Virus record (IMG/VR): IMGVR_UViG_2795385840_000015
Coordinates: 1 to 64,000 of that record
Source: a virus
Taxonomy: Duplodnaviria; Caudoviricetes
Length of the DNA stretch: 64,000 bases
Direction: 5' to 3' (one strand)
This document shows, in pieces, positions 1,645 through 7,619 of the stretch. Made by a program: the position numbers and the translations under genes. Under the pieces are notes generated by a model. The model did no database searches, was not told the DNA's origin, and worked only from the letters and a program-made list of their open reading frames with translations. Each line of letters starts with the position of its first letter. The stretch's first letter is position 1.

Positions 1645-1856
1645 CTGCGGTAGTCGAAAGGGTCACTGCCGAGCCGGTGCTAGTGCCCAGGAGGCAGGCG
1701 GCGGAAATGCTCGGACTCGGACTCACCGAGTTTGACGAGCTGCGGCGAGCAGGACGCATCTTTGTACGCAAGTACGGACGCAAGGTGCTGGTTCCGATGG
1801 AAGAGATTAGGAAGTGCGCGGAAACTATTCCGTGGGATGAAGATAAGGATTCGTGA
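1641..1856 (+). CDS. Excisionase-like/MerR-type HTH protein
   Basis: RRQAAEMLGLG...G.I..RKYGRKVLV pattern; ATGA overlap. Confidence 0.7.
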   Translation: MTAVVERVTAEPVLVPRRQAAEMLGLGLTEFDELRRAGRIFVRKYGRKVLVPMEEIRKCAETIPWDEDKDS

Positions 1857-1857
1857 C

Positions 1858-2169
1858 ATGGGCTTTGCGAACATTGAAACCGAGTTGCGTTTAGCCGAGG
1901 CTCTTACCGCTATCAATGATATTCGGGAGCTTACGGGAATCGCCAACGAGCCCGTCGAACGCGGATACGTTGTTCATCGGGTCACTGCCGAACTTCAGGA
2001 ATGGCTACCGAGTGTCAAGTTTGACCAGCTTGCAGCAATCGCGGATGCCATTGTTGACAACCTAGCCGAGGTGAACCTTATCCCGGTTGGGCCGAATCTG
2101 GACGAACCCATCGGGTTCGAGATTGTTGAAAAACGAGAGTTTTCGATTGTTCCCCTTAATGGGGGATAA
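1858..2169 (+). CDS. Hypothetical protein
   Basis: ATG immediately after the previous stop; 103 aa. Confidence 0.65.
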   Translation: MGFANIETELRLAEALTAINDIRELTGIANEPVERGYVVHRVTAELQEWLPSVKFDQLAAIADAIVDNLAEVNLIPVGPNLDEPIGFEIVEKREFSIVPLNGG

Positions 2170-2187
2170 TTGAAATATGAGGATGGG

Positions 2188-2290
2188 GGTCAGGAGTAGG
2201 TTTGCGCGAGCGCGAAGGATCGCAAAAATCAAAGTCTATCGCCTTGTGGCGCGTGTGAATCTACTTCTGACCGAGTGGACGTATCCGCTC
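2188..2290 (+). ncRNA. Putative structured ncRNA (long stem plus hairpin)
   Basis: GGTCAGGAGTAGGTTT (2188-2203) pairs with GAATCTACTTCTGACC (2257-2272) using G-U pairs; GAGTGGA/TCCGCTC hairpin follows. Confidence 0.45.
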
Positions 2291-2546
2291 TAACTTAATC
2301 CAACCAACCACATAAAAACTTTTACAGCTGGCCGTACGAAGTAACCCCGTTGTCGGGGCGCCTGTGACGTTTATACCGGGTGGGTGTGCGTTTCGCCGCC
2401 AAGTTTAGGTCGCAATGAATATTGTGTGCTTTCACTGTTGGGCACAAACCGATGGTATGGGCGGCGTCTACACGTCTGACGCAATGCCTTGACTCGTATC
2501 CCGTGGCTGAGATACGGAGGTAGAACGGTTAGCCCTAACAGTGAGG

Positions 2547-2649
2547 ATGCGCGGGGCAGGTAATGGCTGCCGCACCCTTGCTACTTATCTATTACAAGGT
2601 AGGGACGCTGACTGGGGGGTGTTTCCGAGTTCGATTCTCGGCGCGCAGC
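2547..2649 (+). ncRNA. tRNA-like RNA with aberrant anticodon arm
   Basis: TGCGCG/CGCGCA acceptor stem, GGCAG/CTGCC D-like arm, CCTTG-N14-CAAGG arm, perfect T arm CCGAG-TTCGATT-CTCGG. Confidence 0.65.
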
Positions 2650-2650
2650 T

Positions 2651-2769
2651 AGTCGGCCGGGTTGAGCGAGCCTAATTGGAAACGGCGTTATTTGTGGTCA
2701 TACGCCTGTTTGTGTTGGGGCTTAATACGGGTTTGCCTCACTCACCGGGTTTCCGCTCCCCGGCCGACT
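2651..2769 (+). ncRNA. Putative multibranch ncRNA
   Basis: Perfect 11-bp terminal stem AGTCGGCCGGG/CCCGGCCGACT; inner TGAGCGAG/CTCACTCA and GGCGT/ACGCC stems. Confidence 0.5.
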
Positions 2770-2803
2770 CATTTCTCTAAATCCCTTCATCGAGAGGTGG
2801 GCA

Positions 2804-3112
2804 ATGGCTATCAATCTTGGGAAACCCACAGGTCCAAAGTTACGTGAACTGCCGCGAGCAGATAGAAACCGCATCCGCATTCTTCTGAATGCTTGGCTGG
2901 ATTGCGCTATTCGTTATCCACCTCACAAGCGTGAGCCGCTGCCGGTTGATTACACCCGTGCGCTGGCGTCTTTGGCGAAACAGCGGGGCATTCAAGTGGT
3001 CTTTGATGGCCGCGATGGTTCTAAGCCTCTACAGGTGACCTTGGATCGCACAATTCCGGGGTGCGTGGGCGGCACTCACCGAAAGGTCGCAGTTCGGAAG
3101 CCGTGGAAATGA
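2804..3112 (+). CDS. Hypothetical protein
   Basis: GAGGTGG RBS; 102 aa. Confidence 0.7.
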   Translation: MAINLGKPTGPKLRELPRADRNRIRILLNAWLDCAIRYPPHKREPLPVDYTRALASLAKQRGIQVVFDGRDGSKPLQVTLDRTIPGCVGGTHRKVAVRKPWK

Positions 3113-3142
3113 GTTTATCCATTTAGGAAAGGTAGTAAAGGA

Positions 3143-3298
3143 ATGTTTGAGTGCCCGCTGGGGTGTGGTCATGCGTACCGCGAAGAGTATCAGCTTCATT
3201 TACATGAATGGGCTTCTGAGGCGGGGCGTCTGCCGGATTGCGGCAAGGGGATGAGTGGCCCGCCAATACATTCTCAGTTCGAGGTCATCGAGCGGTGA
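3143..3298 (+). CDS. Small hypothetical protein, possibly Zn-binding (not in ORF track)
   Basis: MFECPLGCGHAYREEYQLHLHE...; AAGGA RBS. Confidence 0.5.
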   Translation: MFECPLGCGHAYREEYQLHLHEWASEAGRLPDCGKGMSGPPIHSQFEVIER

Positions 3299-3432
3299 AT
3301 AGGTGCCGGTTTGGTTGGCACAAATGGACGTTATGGCACAAGCCCGAGCCCCCTTCCGGGGGTGGATTAAAGCAGCAACGCGAGTGCGTCAGGTGTCGGA
3401 TTGTGAAATGGAGGTTAGTCACATGGTGGTGA
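3295..3432 (+). CDS. Small Cys/His-rich phage protein
   Basis: CRFGWHKW...CVRC; GTGA overlaps at both ends. Confidence 0.55.
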   Translation: MNRCRFGWHKWTLWHKPEPPSGGGLKQQRECVRCRIVKWRLVTWW

Positions 3433-4456: not shown

Positions 4457-5355
4457 AACGCACTAAGGCAGCTGTAGTCGGTATCGCCGTGGCCGCTGGC
4501 CTCACGCTTTCCGCCTGCGCTACCCAGATTCCCGCCGGTCAAACGGCAGTTAAGGTCGATGACTACGCGTTTGTTCCTACCGCCCCAAAGATCATCGGTT
4601 GTATGGGGCCGGAAACCTCGGAGGCCAACCCGATTGGCGGTTTCAAGATCTACCGTTATCCGGCGCGCCAGATCAGTTGGGACGCTACGGGCGCAAAGGG
4701 CGCGGAACACCAGCCTTACGTTGTGGTGTCGGGCGCGGAGGCACCGGCTGAGCTTAAGGTGCCGGTTGTTGTGACCATGGACCTGACCTCGGATTGCGAG
4801 AAGCTGTCTCAGTTCCACCGGGACTTCGGTACTAAGTATCAGGGTTGGCTGAATGCGGATGGCACTCAGTCGGATGGTTGGGTGCAGTTGGTCAATTATG
4901 TTGTGGGCCAACCACTTGAGCAGACGCTTACGCAGGTGGCGCAGAAGTACACTTGGCGTCAGATCTGGAATGACGAGAAGGTGCGTGTGGAGTTCCAGAA
5001 CGTGCTTAAGGAACGGCTTCCGGGCGCGTCCAAGGCGCGCACTGATGGCAAGGAGTATTTCACCAATTTTCAGATAACGGTGCTTAAGCCTGAGCCGATG
5101 GACGGAAACCTCAAGGCTGCAATCAATAAGGAGCAGTCCAGCGTCGCGGAGGCGAACGCTAAGAAGGCTGCCGCCGACGCGGAGGTTAAGGCTGCGGAGT
5201 CGCAGACTGAGGTGGCTAAGCAGCAGGCGTTGCAGAAGCAGGCCGAGATTGCGGGCTTCCCAACCATTGAGGCGTACTTGCAGTCCCAGTTGATTGCGCA
5301 GGGCGGCAACCCTTACCAGCCGACTTACGTTGTCCCGCAGGGCGGTAATCGGTAA
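4453..5355 (+). CDS. SPFH/band-7-like lipoprotein
   Basis: Lipobox LSAC; band-7-like core; Ala/Glu/Lys coiled coil. Confidence 0.7.
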   Translation: MKRTKAAVVGIAVAAGLTLSACATQIPAGQTAVKVDDYAFVPTAPKIIGCMGPETSEANPIGGFKIYRYPARQISWDATGAKGAEHQPYVVVSGAEAPAELKVPVVVTMDLTSDCEKLSQFHRDFGTKYQGWLNADGTQSDGWVQLVNYVVGQPLEQTLTQVAQKYTWRQIWNDEKVRVEFQNVLKERLPGASKARTDGKEYFTNFQITVLKPEPMDGNLKAAINKEQSSVAEANAKKAAADAEVKAAESQTEVAKQQALQKQAEIAGFPTIEAYLQSQLIAQGGNPYQPTYVVPQGGNR

Positions 5356-5565
5356 GTGAGGCGTTCGAAGATGCTGGTGGCCGGTGGCGTTGTCGCTGCC
5401 GGTCTCACCGGCCTACTAGTCGGGTGTGATGTCAGCGACCAACGCACAAACACGTCCGACCCTGATCTAACAGTTGCGCATATCAACGTGGATAACGTTC
5501 CGCGTACATGCGTTGTCTACCGGGACTACCGAAAAGGTGGATTGTCCTGCAATTGGAGTGACTAA
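5356..5565 (+). CDS. Small lipoprotein
   Basis: LVGC lipobox; CVVY...GGLSCNW C-terminus. Confidence 0.65.
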   Translation: MRRSKMLVAGGVVAAGLTGLLVGCDVSDQRTNTSDPDLTVAHINVDNVPRTCVVYRDYRKGGLSCNWSD

Positions 5566-5569
5566 CCTT

Positions 5570-5914
5570 ATGAGTAAAAAGCTAACTAAGACACAAGGAT
5601 TGGTGCAGACAGTGCCCATGCCCAAAGACGTTGCATGGGCTACCAAAGTCACCGGCAGAAACCTTGGGGCAGTGACCTACATGCTGTCATTGTCGTGCGA
5701 GAAGAAGAGCAAGCTTGGGCAGCTCACGGTGACGTTCAAAGAGGACGGCTCACTACGGCGAATCCGGTTCCGGGGCACGGGCGTTGTCGTCTATCCCGGC
5801 ACCTATCTGGTGTACGTGCCATCAACCGGAAACGTCCACGTCGTACCGGCTAAGGACTACAAAGAGAACTTCGGGGAGGTAATAGATCGTGACCACGTTT
5901 TTGCAGGAGATTAG
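5570..5914 (+). CDS. Hypothetical protein
   Basis: ATG 5570 with GGAG RBS. Confidence 0.6.
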   Translation: MSKKLTKTQGLVQTVPMPKDVAWATKVTGRNLGAVTYMLSLSCEKKSKLGQLTVTFKEDGSLRRIRFRGTGVVVYPGTYLVYVPSTGNVHVVPAKDYKENFGEVIDRDHVFAGD

Positions 5915-7322
5915 CCGCGAGACCAACCTGACCCGCACTGAGAACGGCGCGGTCACGAATGCGTCGAGTCTCAACGCGGTGGTTGATTTCTTCGCAGCTG
6001 CCGGGGCGATGCGGGACACCCCCGACAAGGCTGCCGATCTTTTCGAGAAGGCGTATCGGGAAGACCCGCAGACTGCTATCCGCACCATGTTCTACCTGCG
6101 CGATGCGCGCGGAGGGCAGGGGGAGCGCGCTGTCTTCCGGGCCTGCCTTAAGCGCTTGGCCGACCTGGGCTTTACCCCAATGGACAAGGTGCTTAAGCAC
6201 ATTCCGGAGTATGGCCGCTGGGACGACATGTTTTATCAGGGTTCGACGGTGACAGGTGGCATGGCCAAGATCATTGGCGACCAGCTCGTGAAGGACGCCG
6301 ACGCGTACAACCGTGGCGAGTCAGTATCACTGCTGGCCAAGTGGCTGCCGTCCGATACGTCCAAGGGACGCAAGGATCTTGCGGTAAACCTACGTAAGGC
6401 TATCGGCCTGGATCAGCGCAAGTACCGCAAGGTGCTGTCTCGGCTGCGGGCTCACATCGGCCTGCTTGAGCAGGACATGTCCGCTAAGCGTTGGAGTGAG
6501 ATTGACTGGGGCAAGCTGCCTTCGCGCGCTCACATGACGCACGTTAAGGCGTTCCATCGCCACACGCCCGCCGAGTATCAGGCTTACCTCGATTCGGTTG
6601 TCAAGGGCGAGGCCAAGGTAAACGCGGCGACCCTGTATCCGTATGAGCTGTATGACATGGTGAATGCCGGTCAGTCGCAGGCTGCGGATGCGTTGTGGGC
6701 GAATCTGCCTGACTACACGCGCGGCAACGATGGGATCGTCCTAGCGGACGTGTCGGGATCGATGAGTGGTCGGCCTATGTCGGTTTCGGTATCGCTGGCT
6801 TTGTATTTCGCGGACCGCAATCAGGGCGCTTACAAAGATCACTTCATGACCTTCTCGTCCACCCCCAAGATTGAGAAGGTCGCGGGCAAGACCCTGGCGG
6901 ATCGGATGCGCGCGATTGAGAATTCGACCGGCTGGTATGGCTCAACAGACCTGCATGCGGCCTTCCGGGCCATCTTGGCAGCGGGGCAGCGCTCAGGCCA
7001 GGTGCCCAAGACTCTCTACGTGGTGTCGGATATGGAGTTCAACGCGGCGTTCGGGTTCTACCGCAACGACCGCACCGTTGACACCATCTTTGAGACGGCC
7101 AAGCGGGAGTTCGCAGCTGCGGGGCTCGTACTGCCTCACGTCGTGTTCTGGAACGTCAACGCCCGAAACAGTAACTACCCGGCACTAGCCCATGACGGCA
7201 ATGTGACGCTGGTTTCTGGACTGTCGCCCACGGTGTTCGGAATGGCGGTAGAGGGTAAGTCTCCCGCTGAATTGGTGCGAGATGTCGTGAATGGACCGCG
7301 CTATCAGCCCATCGTAATTTGA
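5889..7322 (+). CDS. Ro60/TROVE-like RNA-binding protein with vWA domain (DUF2828-type)
   Basis: TENGA, RDARGGQGER, YGRWDD, LAKWLP, LYPYE, MIDAS motif DVSGSM, SDMEF, VFWNV, SGLSP; GGGGAGG RBS. Confidence 0.85.
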   Translation: MTTFLQEISRETNLTRTENGAVTNASSLNAVVDFFAAAGAMRDTPDKAADLFEKAYREDPQTAIRTMFYLRDARGGQGERAVFRACLKRLADLGFTPMDKVLKHIPEYGRWDDMFYQGSTVTGGMAKIIGDQLVKDADAYNRGESVSLLAKWLPSDTSKGRKDLAVNLRKAIGLDQRKYRKVLSRLRAHIGLLEQDMSAKRWSEIDWGKLPSRAHMTHVKAFHRHTPAEYQAYLDSVVKGEAKVNAATLYPYELYDMVNAGQSQAADALWANLPDYTRGNDGIVLADVSGSMSGRPMSVSVSLALYFADRNQGAYKDHFMTFSSTPKIEKVAGKTLADRMRAIENSTGWYGSTDLHAAFRAILAAGQRSGQVPKTLYVVSDMEFNAAFGFYRNDRTVDTIFETAKREFAAAGLVLPHVVFWNVNARNSNYPALAHDGNVTLVSGLSPTVFGMAVEGKSPAELVRDVVNGPRYQPIVI

Positions 7323-7326
7323 TGGG

Positions 7327-7356
7327 TTGGTAGTGTTCCCCTAGTTGGGGTATGGT
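7327..7356 (+). promoter_or_regulatory. Putative SigA-like promoter of the RNA array
   Basis: TTGGTA-N18-TATGGT places +1 at about 7363-7365. Confidence 0.5.
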
Positions 7357-7364
7357 GAATTTAG

Positions 7365-7423
7365 TGGGCGCGAACAGCAATCACACTCAACTTTCATTTT
7401 CAGAAAAAATAGAGTGCGCCCAG
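7365..7423 (+). ncRNA. CAGCAAT stem-loop RNA unit 1
   Basis: TGGGCGC(7365-71)/GCGCCCA(7416-22); ACAGCAAT at 7374; inner ACTC/GAGT. Confidence 0.7.
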
Positions 7424-7436
7424 TTTCTAAACTTTG

Positions 7437-7489
7437 TGGACCCATACAGCAATATTTTACCTTGCATATAGGAAAGAAATCGGGTCCAG
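7437..7489 (+). ncRNA. CAGCAAT stem-loop RNA unit 2
   Basis: TGGACCC(7437-43)/GGGTCCA(7482-88); ACAGCAAT at 7446; inner CCT-TGCATAT-AGG. Confidence 0.7.
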
Positions 7490-7500
7490 TCTTGCGGTCG

Positions 7501-7561
7501 AGGACACAAGCAGCAATCTAAAATCAACTGTTAAATGGTAACTGTTTCAAACGGTGTCCTG
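7501..7561 (+). ncRNA. CAGCAAT stem-loop RNA unit 3
   Basis: AGGACAC(7501-07)/GTGTCCT(7554-60); GCAGCAAT at 7510; inner CTGTTAA loop and T-arm-like hairpin. Confidence 0.7.
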
Positions 7562-7619
7562 TCAAACCGCGAAAACTCACTGTTTTCACGCTCGTGAGTC
7601 CTAACAATATTTTCGGGTT

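What the first reader, a model, noticed from the sequence alone, without database searches (positions are those of the whole stretch)
7454..7561. Variable loops of the mini-RNAs look like tRNA anticodon arms (possible decoys)
Seen: unit 3 has ATCAA-CTGTTAA-ATGGT, whose 7-nt loop is identical to the anticodon loop of this phage's tRNA-Asn (33164-33236). It is followed by a T-arm-like hairpin (ACTGT-TTCAA-ACGGT) and closes with a 7-bp acceptor-length stem plus G. Unit 2 has CCT-TGCATAT-AGG (CAT-centred). Unit 1 contains CTTTCAT/TTTTCAG (TTC-centred, weak). Inference: these are tRNA relics whose D arm is replaced by the CAGCAAT motif. They could be displayed by the Ro-like protein as decoys or sensors for anticodon nucleases (VapC/MazF/PrrC types), complementing the phage tRNAs, PNK and RNA ligase.
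Basis: inference. Interest (0 to 1): 0.8.

Follow-up and report, generated by a model that had tools for sequence, protein, structure and literature searches.

The report
Degenerate anticodon-arm relic on phage Y-like RNAs
The stretch is the variable part of three small RNAs that probably partner a Ro60-shaped phage protein; across this RNA family such parts are often real copies of tRNA anticodon arms, but in this prophage only one worn-down copy is left, and a decoy role is untested.

Summary
The heptamer CTGTTAA (7528-7534) does equal the anticodon loop of this prophage's tRNA-Asn. Within this window that is weak evidence. A match to one of the 16 tRNA loops arises in 27% of shuffles. The claimed 17-nt arm does not fold on its own, and its stem has an A.A mismatch. 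98-99% relatives mutate or delete it. The "T arm" is not a T loop and shares two bases with the closing stem. The loops of units 1 and 2 break the U33/R37 rules.

The three units belong to a large "CAGCAA-handle" RNA family that lies on the same strand beside Ro60-fold DUF2828/vWA genes in very diverse phages. Of 98 non-redundant short units, 18 carry a stem plus 7-nt CU-NNN-AA loop, against 0.6 in shuffles. In longer units the same hairpin sits before a tRNA-type variable loop and T arm. In cluster L relatives the middle unit is YrlA-like.

So these are Y-RNA-like partner RNAs with tRNA-derived cargo, and unit 3 is a decayed Asn-type arm. A decoy or sensor role is plausible but unshown. This scan has noted the family in at least 51 other genomes. 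I found it neither in Rfam nor in the papers searched.

The parts
5889..7322 (+). Gene for the Ro60-fold protein (DUF2828 + DUF7788/vWA, 477 aa), the presumed protein partner of the RNAs.
   Evidence: Pfam PF11443 at 1.2e-32 and PF25043 at 1e-31. The AlphaFold model (pLDDT 77) matches TROVE/Ro60 structures over its full length: 9kop, 1yvp, 9l5y, 2nvo, E 1e-7 to 1e-4.
7365..7424 (+). Unit 1. Handle TGGGCGC(G)/(T)GCGCCCA, motif CAGCAA at 7375-7380, inner helix CACTC/GAGTG, apical hairpin TTTC-ATTTTCA-GAAA (7392-7406), 3' tail GT.
   Evidence: R1 model 44.9 bits. Fold z = -2.8. The orthologous hairpin in Aegeus is TTTCA-CTTCTAA-TGAAA.
7437..7490 (+). Unit 2. Handle TGGACCC/GGGTCCA, motif at 7447-7452, 3-bp hairpin CCT-TGCATAT-AGG (7460-7472), 3' tail GT. 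It sits at the array position where cluster L relatives carry a YrlA-like tRNA body.
   Evidence: R1 model 45.8 bits. Relatives compared.
7501..7562 (+). Unit 3. Handle AGGACAC/GTGTCCT, motif at 7511-7516, variable insert with the direct repeat AACTGTT..GGT twice, 3' tail GT.
   Evidence: R1 model 36.6 bits. Folds.
7528..7534 (+). Heptamer CTGTTAA, identical to the tRNA-Asn anticodon loop. Probably a relic of an anticodon-arm module.
   Evidence: Chance 0.27. The canonical version is in L031, L033, L037 and L064.
7541..7555 (+). Second hairpin of unit 3 (ACTGTT-TCA-AACGGT). It is not a T arm, and its 3' end overlaps the handle.
   Evidence: plus coordinates read.
7494..7570 (+). Outer 5-bp helix GCGGT (7494-7498)/ACCGC (7566-7570) that encloses unit 3.
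   Evidence: Fold z = -3.1. The same helix is kept with changes in cluster L: GCGGC/GCCGC and GCGGT/GCCGC.
7622..7657 (+). GC-rich 10-bp hairpin followed by TTTTCT. Likely the terminator of the Ro-like gene plus RNA array transcript.
   Evidence: Fold. Conserved in relatives. Not called by the consensus scan, whose loop limit is 8 nt.

Best explanation
The region 7454-7561 is the variable part of units 2 and 3 of a three-unit array (7365-7562) of small Y-RNA-like RNAs.

Anatomy of a unit:
- a conserved 'handle': a 7-bp closing helix, then a 5' bulge nnA-CAGCAA-Y, and a 3' tail GU;
- a free-to-vary apical part.

The handle is most likely bound by the Ro60-fold DUF2828/vWA protein encoded just upstream (inferred from conserved same-strand linkage, not shown). 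Across the family the apical part is often tRNA material. It can be an isolated anticodon arm, or an anticodon arm, variable loop, T arm, closed acceptor helix and D arm together (YrlA-like).

This prophage lineage has lost the tRNA body of the middle unit. Unit 3 keeps only a decayed Asn-type anticodon loop on a stem that no longer folds well. The loops of units 1 and 2 are not anticodon-like.

Proposed working (inferred): the array is transcribed with the Ro-like gene and cut into RNAs of about 55-62 nt. Each RNA loads onto the ring protein through its handle and presents its apical part to proteins that recognise tRNA. This would be part of the phage's tRNA-damage toolkit (PNK/phosphatase, RNA ligase, 16 tRNAs).
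For: - Handle family. The R1 model finds only these three sites in the 103-kb provirus, both strands. In 8 unrelated GenBank phages that were not in the seed it gives 22 hits. All lie on the strand of the Ro-like gene, next to it or between its neighbouring tRNA genes, in 7 of the 8 phages.
- The closing helix covaries. For example, one pair is AU 37, GC 24, CG 7, UA 6.
- The protein has the Ro60 fold.
- The middle units of relatives hit Rfam YrlA: 47, 40, 39, 28 and 25 bits.
- Anticodon-arm modules are enriched: 18 of 98 short units against 0.59 in shuffles (maximum 4 of 300), while same-composition control patterns score 0. Within-loop permutation gives 15 CU..AA of 41 loops against 0.5 expected. 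MFE loops are 7 nt in 37 of 91 cases, against 6.8% in shuffles.
- In about 20 of 35 T-arm-bearing units a 7-nt-loop hairpin sits 3-6 nt before the T stem, with spacers such as AGGTT or AGGC.
- Decay in this lineage.
- Context: PNKP at 16958-17893 and RNA ligase at 21388-22668; 16 tRNAs.
Against: - No expression data. No RNA run holds the prophage.
- Binding of the RNAs to the protein is inferred from linkage only.
- My unit finder required a stem next to CAGCAA, so the percentage of paired cells is partly circular. The fixed register, the conserved G-C pair and the independent R1 hits are not circular.
- E-values of R1 come from a short calibration.
- The enrichment of anticodon-type loops could reflect descent from tRNA genes rather than present function.
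- The unconstrained MFE of unit 3 pairs part of the CAGCAA motif.
Confidence: 0.72

Rival explanations
1. First reader's model. The apical hairpins are working anticodon-arm mimics, displayed by the Ro-like protein as decoys or as cleavage-triggered sensors for host anticodon nucleases (VapC, MazF, PrrC/RloC, PARIS-type). They would complement the phage tRNAs, PNK and ligase.
For: - Family-wide enrichment of CU-NNN-AA loops with variable triplets. In short units these are UUU x4, GUU x3 and GCU x3, then UCU, CAU, CUU and UUC.
- Orthologous hairpins in cluster L change mainly at position 35: CTGGTAA, CTGTTAA, ATGATAA, CTGATAA.
- Ro-like genes sit in or beside tRNA arrays and RNA ligases.
- A preprint reports that the Ro60-like gp130 of the coliphage Bas63 counters the Ppl defence.
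- Among 98-100% identical prophages, 6 of the 7 differences within the array fall in the apical parts of units 1 and 3; the seventh lies in the spacer between units 1 and 2, and none falls in a handle.
Against: - In this window the only anticodon-type loop sits on a stem that does not fold.
- It is mutated at position 37/38 in L006 and deleted in L007.
- Units 1 and 2 fail the U33/R37 rules.
- No nuclease, cleavage or protection was tested.
- Ppl is not known to be a tRNA nuclease.
Confidence: 0.13
2. Only the handle matters here. The units act as gates or regulators of the Ro-like ring, or tether it to a host RNase such as PNPase, as shown for Deinococcus, Salmonella and Thermus phage phiLo. 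The apical loops of this prophage would then be neutral remnants.
For: - Handles and motifs are invariant, while apical parts mutate and suffer indels among near-identical prophages.
- Many family members carry apical hairpins with no tRNA likeness.
- phiLo Ro60 with Yrl1/Yrl2 forms complexes with host PNPase (PMC12135203).
Against: It does not explain why 7-nt CU-NNN-AA loops and whole tRNA bodies are kept on unrelated stems across phyla.
Confidence: 0.12
3. Not an RNA gene at all. Instead a small protein gene (as annotated for Aegeus gp61, or the ORF 7345-7521), or plain terminator/attenuator hairpins.
For: An ORF of 58 aa spans 7345-7521. Aegeus carries a 47-aa 'hypothetical protein' annotation over units 1-2.
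Against: - Relatives differ by indels of 1, 2, 4 and 7 nt inside that span, so no frame is kept.
- The conserved features are a covarying helix and a fixed motif, found on one strand in phages of Actinobacteria, Firmicutes, Cyanobacteria, Campylobacter and Enterobacteria.
Confidence: 0.03

Closest known systems
YrlA/YrlB Y RNAs with bacterial and mycobacteriophage Ro60 (Rsr). Chen et al. 2014, PMC4201824; Rfam RF02553.
   Same: - Small RNAs on the same strand beside a Ro60-fold gene.
- A terminal helix with a large internal loop as the presumed protein site, plus a tRNA-like module.
- Short (YrlB-like) and long (YrlA-like) forms occur side by side.
- Middle units of cluster L relatives hit RF02553 at 25-47 bits.
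   Different: - The protein is DUF2828-type, not Pfam TROVE.
- The handle carries CAGCAA, which the RF02553 consensus lacks.
- Units come in arrays of 3 to more than 8.
- Many units carry an isolated anticodon arm, which YrlA lacks.
- The three units of this window give no RF02553 hit.
Thermus phage phiLo Ro60 with Yrl1/Yrl2 (PMC12135203; PDB 9KOP, 9L5Y).
   Same: - A phage-encoded Ro60 ring with phage-encoded partner RNAs next to the gene.
- It is the top structural match of the model here.
   Different: phiLo's RNAs were picked through a CGAA motif. I did not compare them with the CAGCAA handle.
Class I RNAs of dictyostelid amoebae (Rfam RF01414; Kjellin et al. 2021, PMC7919456).
   Same: - About 60 nt long, with a short covarying terminal stem and a conserved motif directly after the 5' stem strand.
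- Variable interior and a conserved 3' end.
- In the 103-kb provirus the only three RF01414 matches at E up to 10 are exactly the three units.
   Different: - Scores of 10-17 bits lie far below the 41.5-bit cut-off, and control genomes also give weak hits.
- They are eukaryotic nuclear genes with their own promoters, and the known binder is an RRM protein.
tRNA anticodon stem-loop.
   Same: - A 7-nt loop C32 U33 NNN A37 A38 on a stem of about 5 bp in about 18% of short family units.
- In long units the hairpin sits in the tRNA position before a variable loop and T arm.
- Twelve of this phage's own 16 tRNA loops are CT-NNN-AA.
   Different: - The stems are AU-rich and unrelated to those of the cognate tRNAs.
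- In this window the stem is broken, and two of the three loops fail the rules.

Membership tests
   All three units align end to end to R1 (36.6-45.8 bits). The window units were part of the seed, so their own scores follow by construction. Specificity is shown.
   Motifs at 7375-7380, 7447-7452 and 7511-7516. Tails GT at 7423-7424, 7489-7490 and 7561-7562.
   The gene ends at 7322 and unit 1 starts at 7365.
YrlA (Rfam RF02553) | Covariance-model score at or above the gathering score (69 bits). | tested here: not met
   No hit up to E = 10 in 5000-10000. Relatives' middle units reach 25-47 bits.
YrlA (Rfam RF02553) | tRNA-like domain: T arm, closed acceptor helix, D arm. | tested here: not met
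   Absent from all three units. Present in Crossroads, Archie, Snenia, JoeDirt, L013, L019, L021, L022 and L024.
Y RNA in the functional sense | Bound by the Ro60-type protein. | not testable with these tools
   Only linkage and the protein fold are available.
tRNA anticodon arm (unit 3, 7523-7539) | 7-nt loop with Y32, U33, R37. | tested here: met
   CTGTTAA, identical to the tRNA-Asn loop.
tRNA anticodon arm (unit 3, 7523-7539) | Stable stem of about 5 bp closing the loop. | tested here: not met
   A.A next to the loop and only 4 pairs. MFE 0 kcal/mol. Pair probability about 0.2.
tRNA anticodon arm (units 1 and 2) | Y32, U33, R37 in a 7-nt loop. | tested here: not met
   ATTTTCA has A32 and C37. 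TGCATAT has G33.
tRNA T arm (7541-7555) | 5-bp stem ending G53-C61, with a 7-nt loop TTCRANY. | tested here: not met
   Folds as 6 bp with a 3-nt loop. In the 7-nt reading the loop is TTTCAAA. It shares G7554 and U7555 with the handle. Only 1 of 98 short family units has a T-type loop.
Dictyostelid Class I RNA (RF01414) | Covariance-model score at or above 41.5 bits. | tested here: not met
   16.6, 14.4 and 10.5 bits, though these are the only three RF01414 matches at E up to 10 in the record.

The most novel reading that the evidence does not exclude
Phage Ro60-like rings carry a cassette system. One constant handle displays interchangeable tRNA anticodon arms (Lys, Asn, Ser, Arg, Met, Ile, Thr types and others). 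These arms bait, or are cut by, host tRNA-targeting defence nucleases or anticodon-reading enzymes. Cleavage or capture then switches the Ro-like particle on for tRNA rescue together with the phage PNK and ligase. On this reading, the fast turnover of apical loops among near-identical prophages is an arms-race trace.
Probability: 0.15. Interest if true: 0.85.

Novelty: new variant of a known kind. Interest (0 to 1): 0.5.

Why it matters
Ro60/Y-RNA particles are known from animals to bacteria, and why bacterial Y RNAs mimic tRNA is an open question. This family offers new material on that question.

- It occurs in hundreds of phages, including Felix O1-like, P100-like and cluster L phages that can be handled at the bench.
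- One conserved handle carries anything from a bare anticodon arm to a whole permuted tRNA, often inside tRNA gene arrays and near RNA repair enzymes.
- That makes the 'why mimic tRNA' question testable in phage-host pairs. It may also link Ro-like proteins to counter-defence, as reported for Bas63 gp130 against Ppl.

For this particular prophage the lesson is more modest.

Tried and rejected
- Rfam at E up to 10 over 5000-10000 found nothing at the units. Over 1800-3400 it found nothing relevant.
- A sequence search of the protein against PDB chains gave no hit. The fold search was needed.
- Expression: no RNA holder is listed for 7300-7700. Four raw-read RNA runs with the same species labels laid 0 reads on 5800-7800, so the prophage is not shown to be in those strains and this is no test.
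- The consensus promoter/terminator scan of 7200-7750 found no site.
- T-arm reading of 7541-7555: rejected.
- Small-ORF reading: rejected because indels break the frame.
- I considered that loops of the TGCATAY/TGCGGAT class (unit 2; unit 1 of cluster L) pair with GCAA of the motif, or form kissing dimers. At most 4 nt are complementary and L011 breaks it (TCGCATAT), so I did not pursue it.
- I looked for agreement between mimic triplets and the tRNA genes in the same locus in a few phages. F352 has a Ser-type loop against tRNA Met/Asn/Tyr. B3 has a Lys(CUU)-type loop against Pro/Arg/Gly/Ile. There is no obvious rule, and the sample is too small.
- I did not check that Bas63 gp130 is the orthologue of this protein. 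Only its described position upstream of a tRNA array matches the Felixounavirus locus L110.

Full report
**1. What is at the coordinates**

The window is a mycobacterial provirus (103-kb IMG/VR record). It is related to cluster L phages. The closest named relatives are Mycobacterium phages Aegeus and Baudelaire from M. chelonae (80% DNA identity over the region; 81% protein identity).

ORF 5889-7322 (+) encodes a 477-aa DUF2828 + DUF7788/vWA protein. Its AlphaFold model (pLDDT 77) matches Ro60/TROVE structures over the whole length. The top hits are 9kop and 9l5y (Thermus phage phiLo Ro60), 1yvp (Xenopus Ro with RNAs) and 2nvo (Deinococcus Rsr), with E 1e-7 to 1e-4.

The 364-nt gap that follows holds three tandem units: 7365-7424, 7437-7490 and 7501-7562. 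After them come a small hairpin and a GC-rich terminator-like hairpin at 7622-7657.

Each unit has the same plan:
- a 7-bp closing helix;
- 2-3 nt, then CAGCAA;
- a variable insert;
- the 3' strand of the helix, then GU.

The finding (7454-7561) covers the inserts of units 2 and 3.

**2. Check of the observation**

The heptamer CTGTTAA at 7528-7534 is indeed the anticodon loop of the prophage's tRNA-Asn. Several results weaken it as evidence within this window.

- Twelve of the 16 phage tRNA loops have the form CT-NNN-AA and the inserts are A/T-rich. As a result, 27% of dinucleotide shuffles of the three inserts contain a heptamer equal to one of the 16 loops.
- The proposed stem ATCAA/ATGGT has an A.A mismatch next to the loop and only four pairs, one of them G-U.
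- The 17-mer stays unfolded. With the handle forced and the motif left single-stranded, its pairs have a probability of about 0.2, and another fold is the minimum.
- The 'T-arm-like' hairpin folds as 6 bp with a 3-nt loop and lacks the G-TTCRA signature. Its last two pairs use G7554 and U7555, which are also the innermost pairs of the closing helix.
- The unit 2 loop TGCATAT has G at the U33 position. The unit 1 loop ATTTTCA has A32 and C37.
- Among prophages whose Ro-like protein is 98-100% identical, L006 has CTGTTTA, L009 changes the 3' flank, and L007 has a 7-nt deletion that removes the 5' half.

Six of the seven differences within the array among these near-identical copies fall in the apical parts of units 1 and 3; the seventh (L009) lies in the spacer between units 1 and 2. 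None falls in a handle, a motif or unit 2.

**3. What the units are**

Downstream of every Ro-like gene of cluster L and related actinophages lies the same three-unit array.

In most of these phages the middle unit is about 125 nt long. It contains a T arm (GGGTTCGAnTCCC), a closed acceptor-like helix, TA, and a D arm (GCTCAnnGGnAGAGC). This is the permuted tRNA of YrlA. Rfam RF02553 finds these units below its threshold: L022 47 bits at E 1e-7, JoeDirt 40, Snenia 39, L024 28 and L013 25.

The lineage of the window, Aegeus, L010 and L011 has replaced that body with a 13-nt hairpin.

The handle reaches much further than the actinophages. In IMG/VR loci whose Ro-like protein is only 35-55% identical, units with the same handle lie up- or downstream on the same strand, often 3 to 8 or more in a row.

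An alignment of 78 short units shows two things:
- CAGC-A is invariant at a fixed distance from a helix with one conserved G-C pair;
- the other helix positions covary heavily.

My finder required a stem, so the percentage of paired cells is partly circular. The fixed register and the independent hits described next are not.

A covariance model, R1, was built from this alignment.
- In the 103-kb provirus it finds only the three units, on both strands searched.
- In eight unrelated GenBank phages that were not in the seed it gives 22 hits, all on the strand of the Ro-like gene and beside it.
- The phages with hits are Staphylococcus SEP9, Listeria P200, Bacillus PBC2, Synechococcus B3, Campylobacter F352, Enterococcus VRE9_1 and Felixounavirus VpaE1. 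Vibrio 6E35-1b has none.
- In VpaE1 and PBC2 the units sit in the gaps between tRNA genes of the same strand.

Rfam 15 has no family for these units. RF01414 (dictyostelid Class I RNA) matches the record only at exactly the three units (no other match up to E = 10), but at only 10-17 bits against a 41.5-bit cut-off. That is a resemblance, not membership.

**4.

I took 160 units, non-redundant at 85% identity: 98 with inserts of 48 nt or less and 62 longer ones.

Short units:
- 18 of 98 contain a stem of at least 4 bp closing a 7-nt loop CT-NNN-AA. Dinucleotide shuffles give 0.59 +/- 0.81, with a maximum of 4 in 300.
- Control patterns of the same composition (TC...AA, AA...TC, CT...TT, TT...AA) occur 0 times.
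- Of the predicted hairpin loops, 37 of 91 are 7 nt long, against 6.8% in shuffles.
- The position counts of these loops are C at 32, U at 33, A at 37 and A at 38, with a variable middle.
- Permuting letters within each loop predicts 0.5 CU..AA loops, where 15 of 41 are seen.

The same heptamers sit on unrelated stems. CTGTTAA occurs on TTTCA/TGAAA, AATTTCA/TGAAATT, TACAA/TTGTA and ATAAGC/GCTTAT. CTTTTAA occurs on five different stems.

Long units:
- 35 of 62 have a T arm.
- In about 20 of these a 7-nt-loop hairpin ends 3-6 nt before the T stem, with spacers such as AGGTT, AGGC or AGGT. This is the tRNA order anticodon arm, variable loop, T arm.
- Both module orders occur: T arm before D arm (YrlA-like) and D arm before T arm (tRNA order, with the handle in the acceptor position).

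So the hairpins are anticodon arms by position as well as by shape, and the family-wide enrichment is real.

Unit 3 of the window aligns with the canonical TTTCA-CTGTTAA-TGAAA hairpin at the same array position in relative L031 (61% protein identity). It differs by an extra A on each side of the loop. I read it as a decayed copy.

**5. How it most likely works**

Shown:
- the protein fold;
- the strict same-strand linkage of handle RNAs to this gene family across phyla;
- the tRNA origin of many apical parts;
- the presence in this prophage of a PNK/phosphatase (16958-17893), an RNA ligase (21388-22668) and 16 tRNAs.

Inferred:
- the array is co-transcribed with the Ro-like gene, since no promoter-like site was found and the spacers are only 12-14 nt, and is then processed;
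- the handle is the protein's binding site, by analogy with Y RNAs (PMC4201824; PMC12135203);
- the apical part is presented to tRNA-recognising proteins.

Which proteins those are is open. The decoy/sensor idea fits the variable triplets, the tRNA-array and RNA-repair neighbourhood, and the report that the Ro60-like gp130 of the coliphage Bas63 counters the Ppl defence (bioRxiv 10.1101/2024.10.10.617714). I did not verify orthology with gp130, and that Bas63 is a Felixounavirus is from my own memory. Nothing tested here speaks to the decoy idea directly, and in this prophage the mimic is poor and dispensable in at least one natural relative.

**6. Comparison and novelty**

tRNA mimicry by Y RNAs next to Ro60 genes is known, including in 22 phages with TROVE-annotated proteins. 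Three things differ here:
- the DUF2828-type protein;
- the CAGCAA handle;
- the array format with isolated anticodon arms as cargo.

I found no description in Rfam or in the papers searched.

This scan has already noted the family in at least 51 other genomes, several times with the same anticodon-arm reading. I reached the same view independently on this DNA. I add that this window is a weak, degenerate example.

**7. Verdict**

- Observation: partly confirmed.
- Interpretation: partly supported. The tRNA-derived cargo holds. The T arm and the D-arm replacement do not. The decoy role is untested.
- Interest: moderate. The family is worth bench work, but this locus is not its best representative.

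Noticed in passing
window 7494-7498 with 7566-7570: An outer 5-bp helix (GCGGT/ACCGC) encloses unit 3 only. Cluster L phages keep it with changes (GCGGC/GCCGC; GCGGT/GCCGC), so the third unit has a two-storey handle.
   Followed up: partly
window 7574-7600; L012: A hairpin (ACTCAC...GTGAGT) lies between unit 3 and the terminator. It exists only in the window's closest relatives. A 25-nt deletion in L012 removes it, and it is absent from Aegeus and L010.
   Followed up: no
L001 3062-3205 (Aegeus gp61): The annotated 47-aa 'hypothetical protein' lies exactly over units 1 and 2 of the RNA array. It is probably not a gene.
   Followed up: partly
L110 4543-7303; L112 349-2438: The feature tables list the tRNA genes of Felixounavirus VpaE1_ev78 and Bacillus phage PBC2 on the minus strand of the locus. 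ARAGORN finds all of them on the plus strand, the strand of the Ro-like gene. CAGCAA units fill the gaps between these tRNAs.
   Followed up: partly
L111 5851-7062: Listeria phage P200 (P100-like) has an RtcB-type RNA ligase 1.3 kb downstream of its Ro-like gene. This echoes the Salmonella rsr-yrlBA-rtcBA operon.
   Followed up: no
L028 964-1395 (minus strand): A tmRNA gene (Rfam 72 bits) lies just upstream of the Ro-like gene of an AT-rich metagenomic phage that carries at least five CAGCAA units.
   Followed up: no
window 14219-16629: A phosphoribosyltransferase-domain gene overlaps a Nampt/NAPRTase-family gene (Pfam).
   Followed up: partly
They do not carry the CAGCAA handle, since R1 has no hit there.
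   Followed up: partly
window 7463-7469; L003 and L024 unit 1; L002 unit 1: A second recurrent loop class, TGCATAY/TGCGGAT, sits on unrelated stems in mycobacteriophage units. It is not anticodon-like (G at position 33), and TGCA is self-complementary.
   Followed up: no
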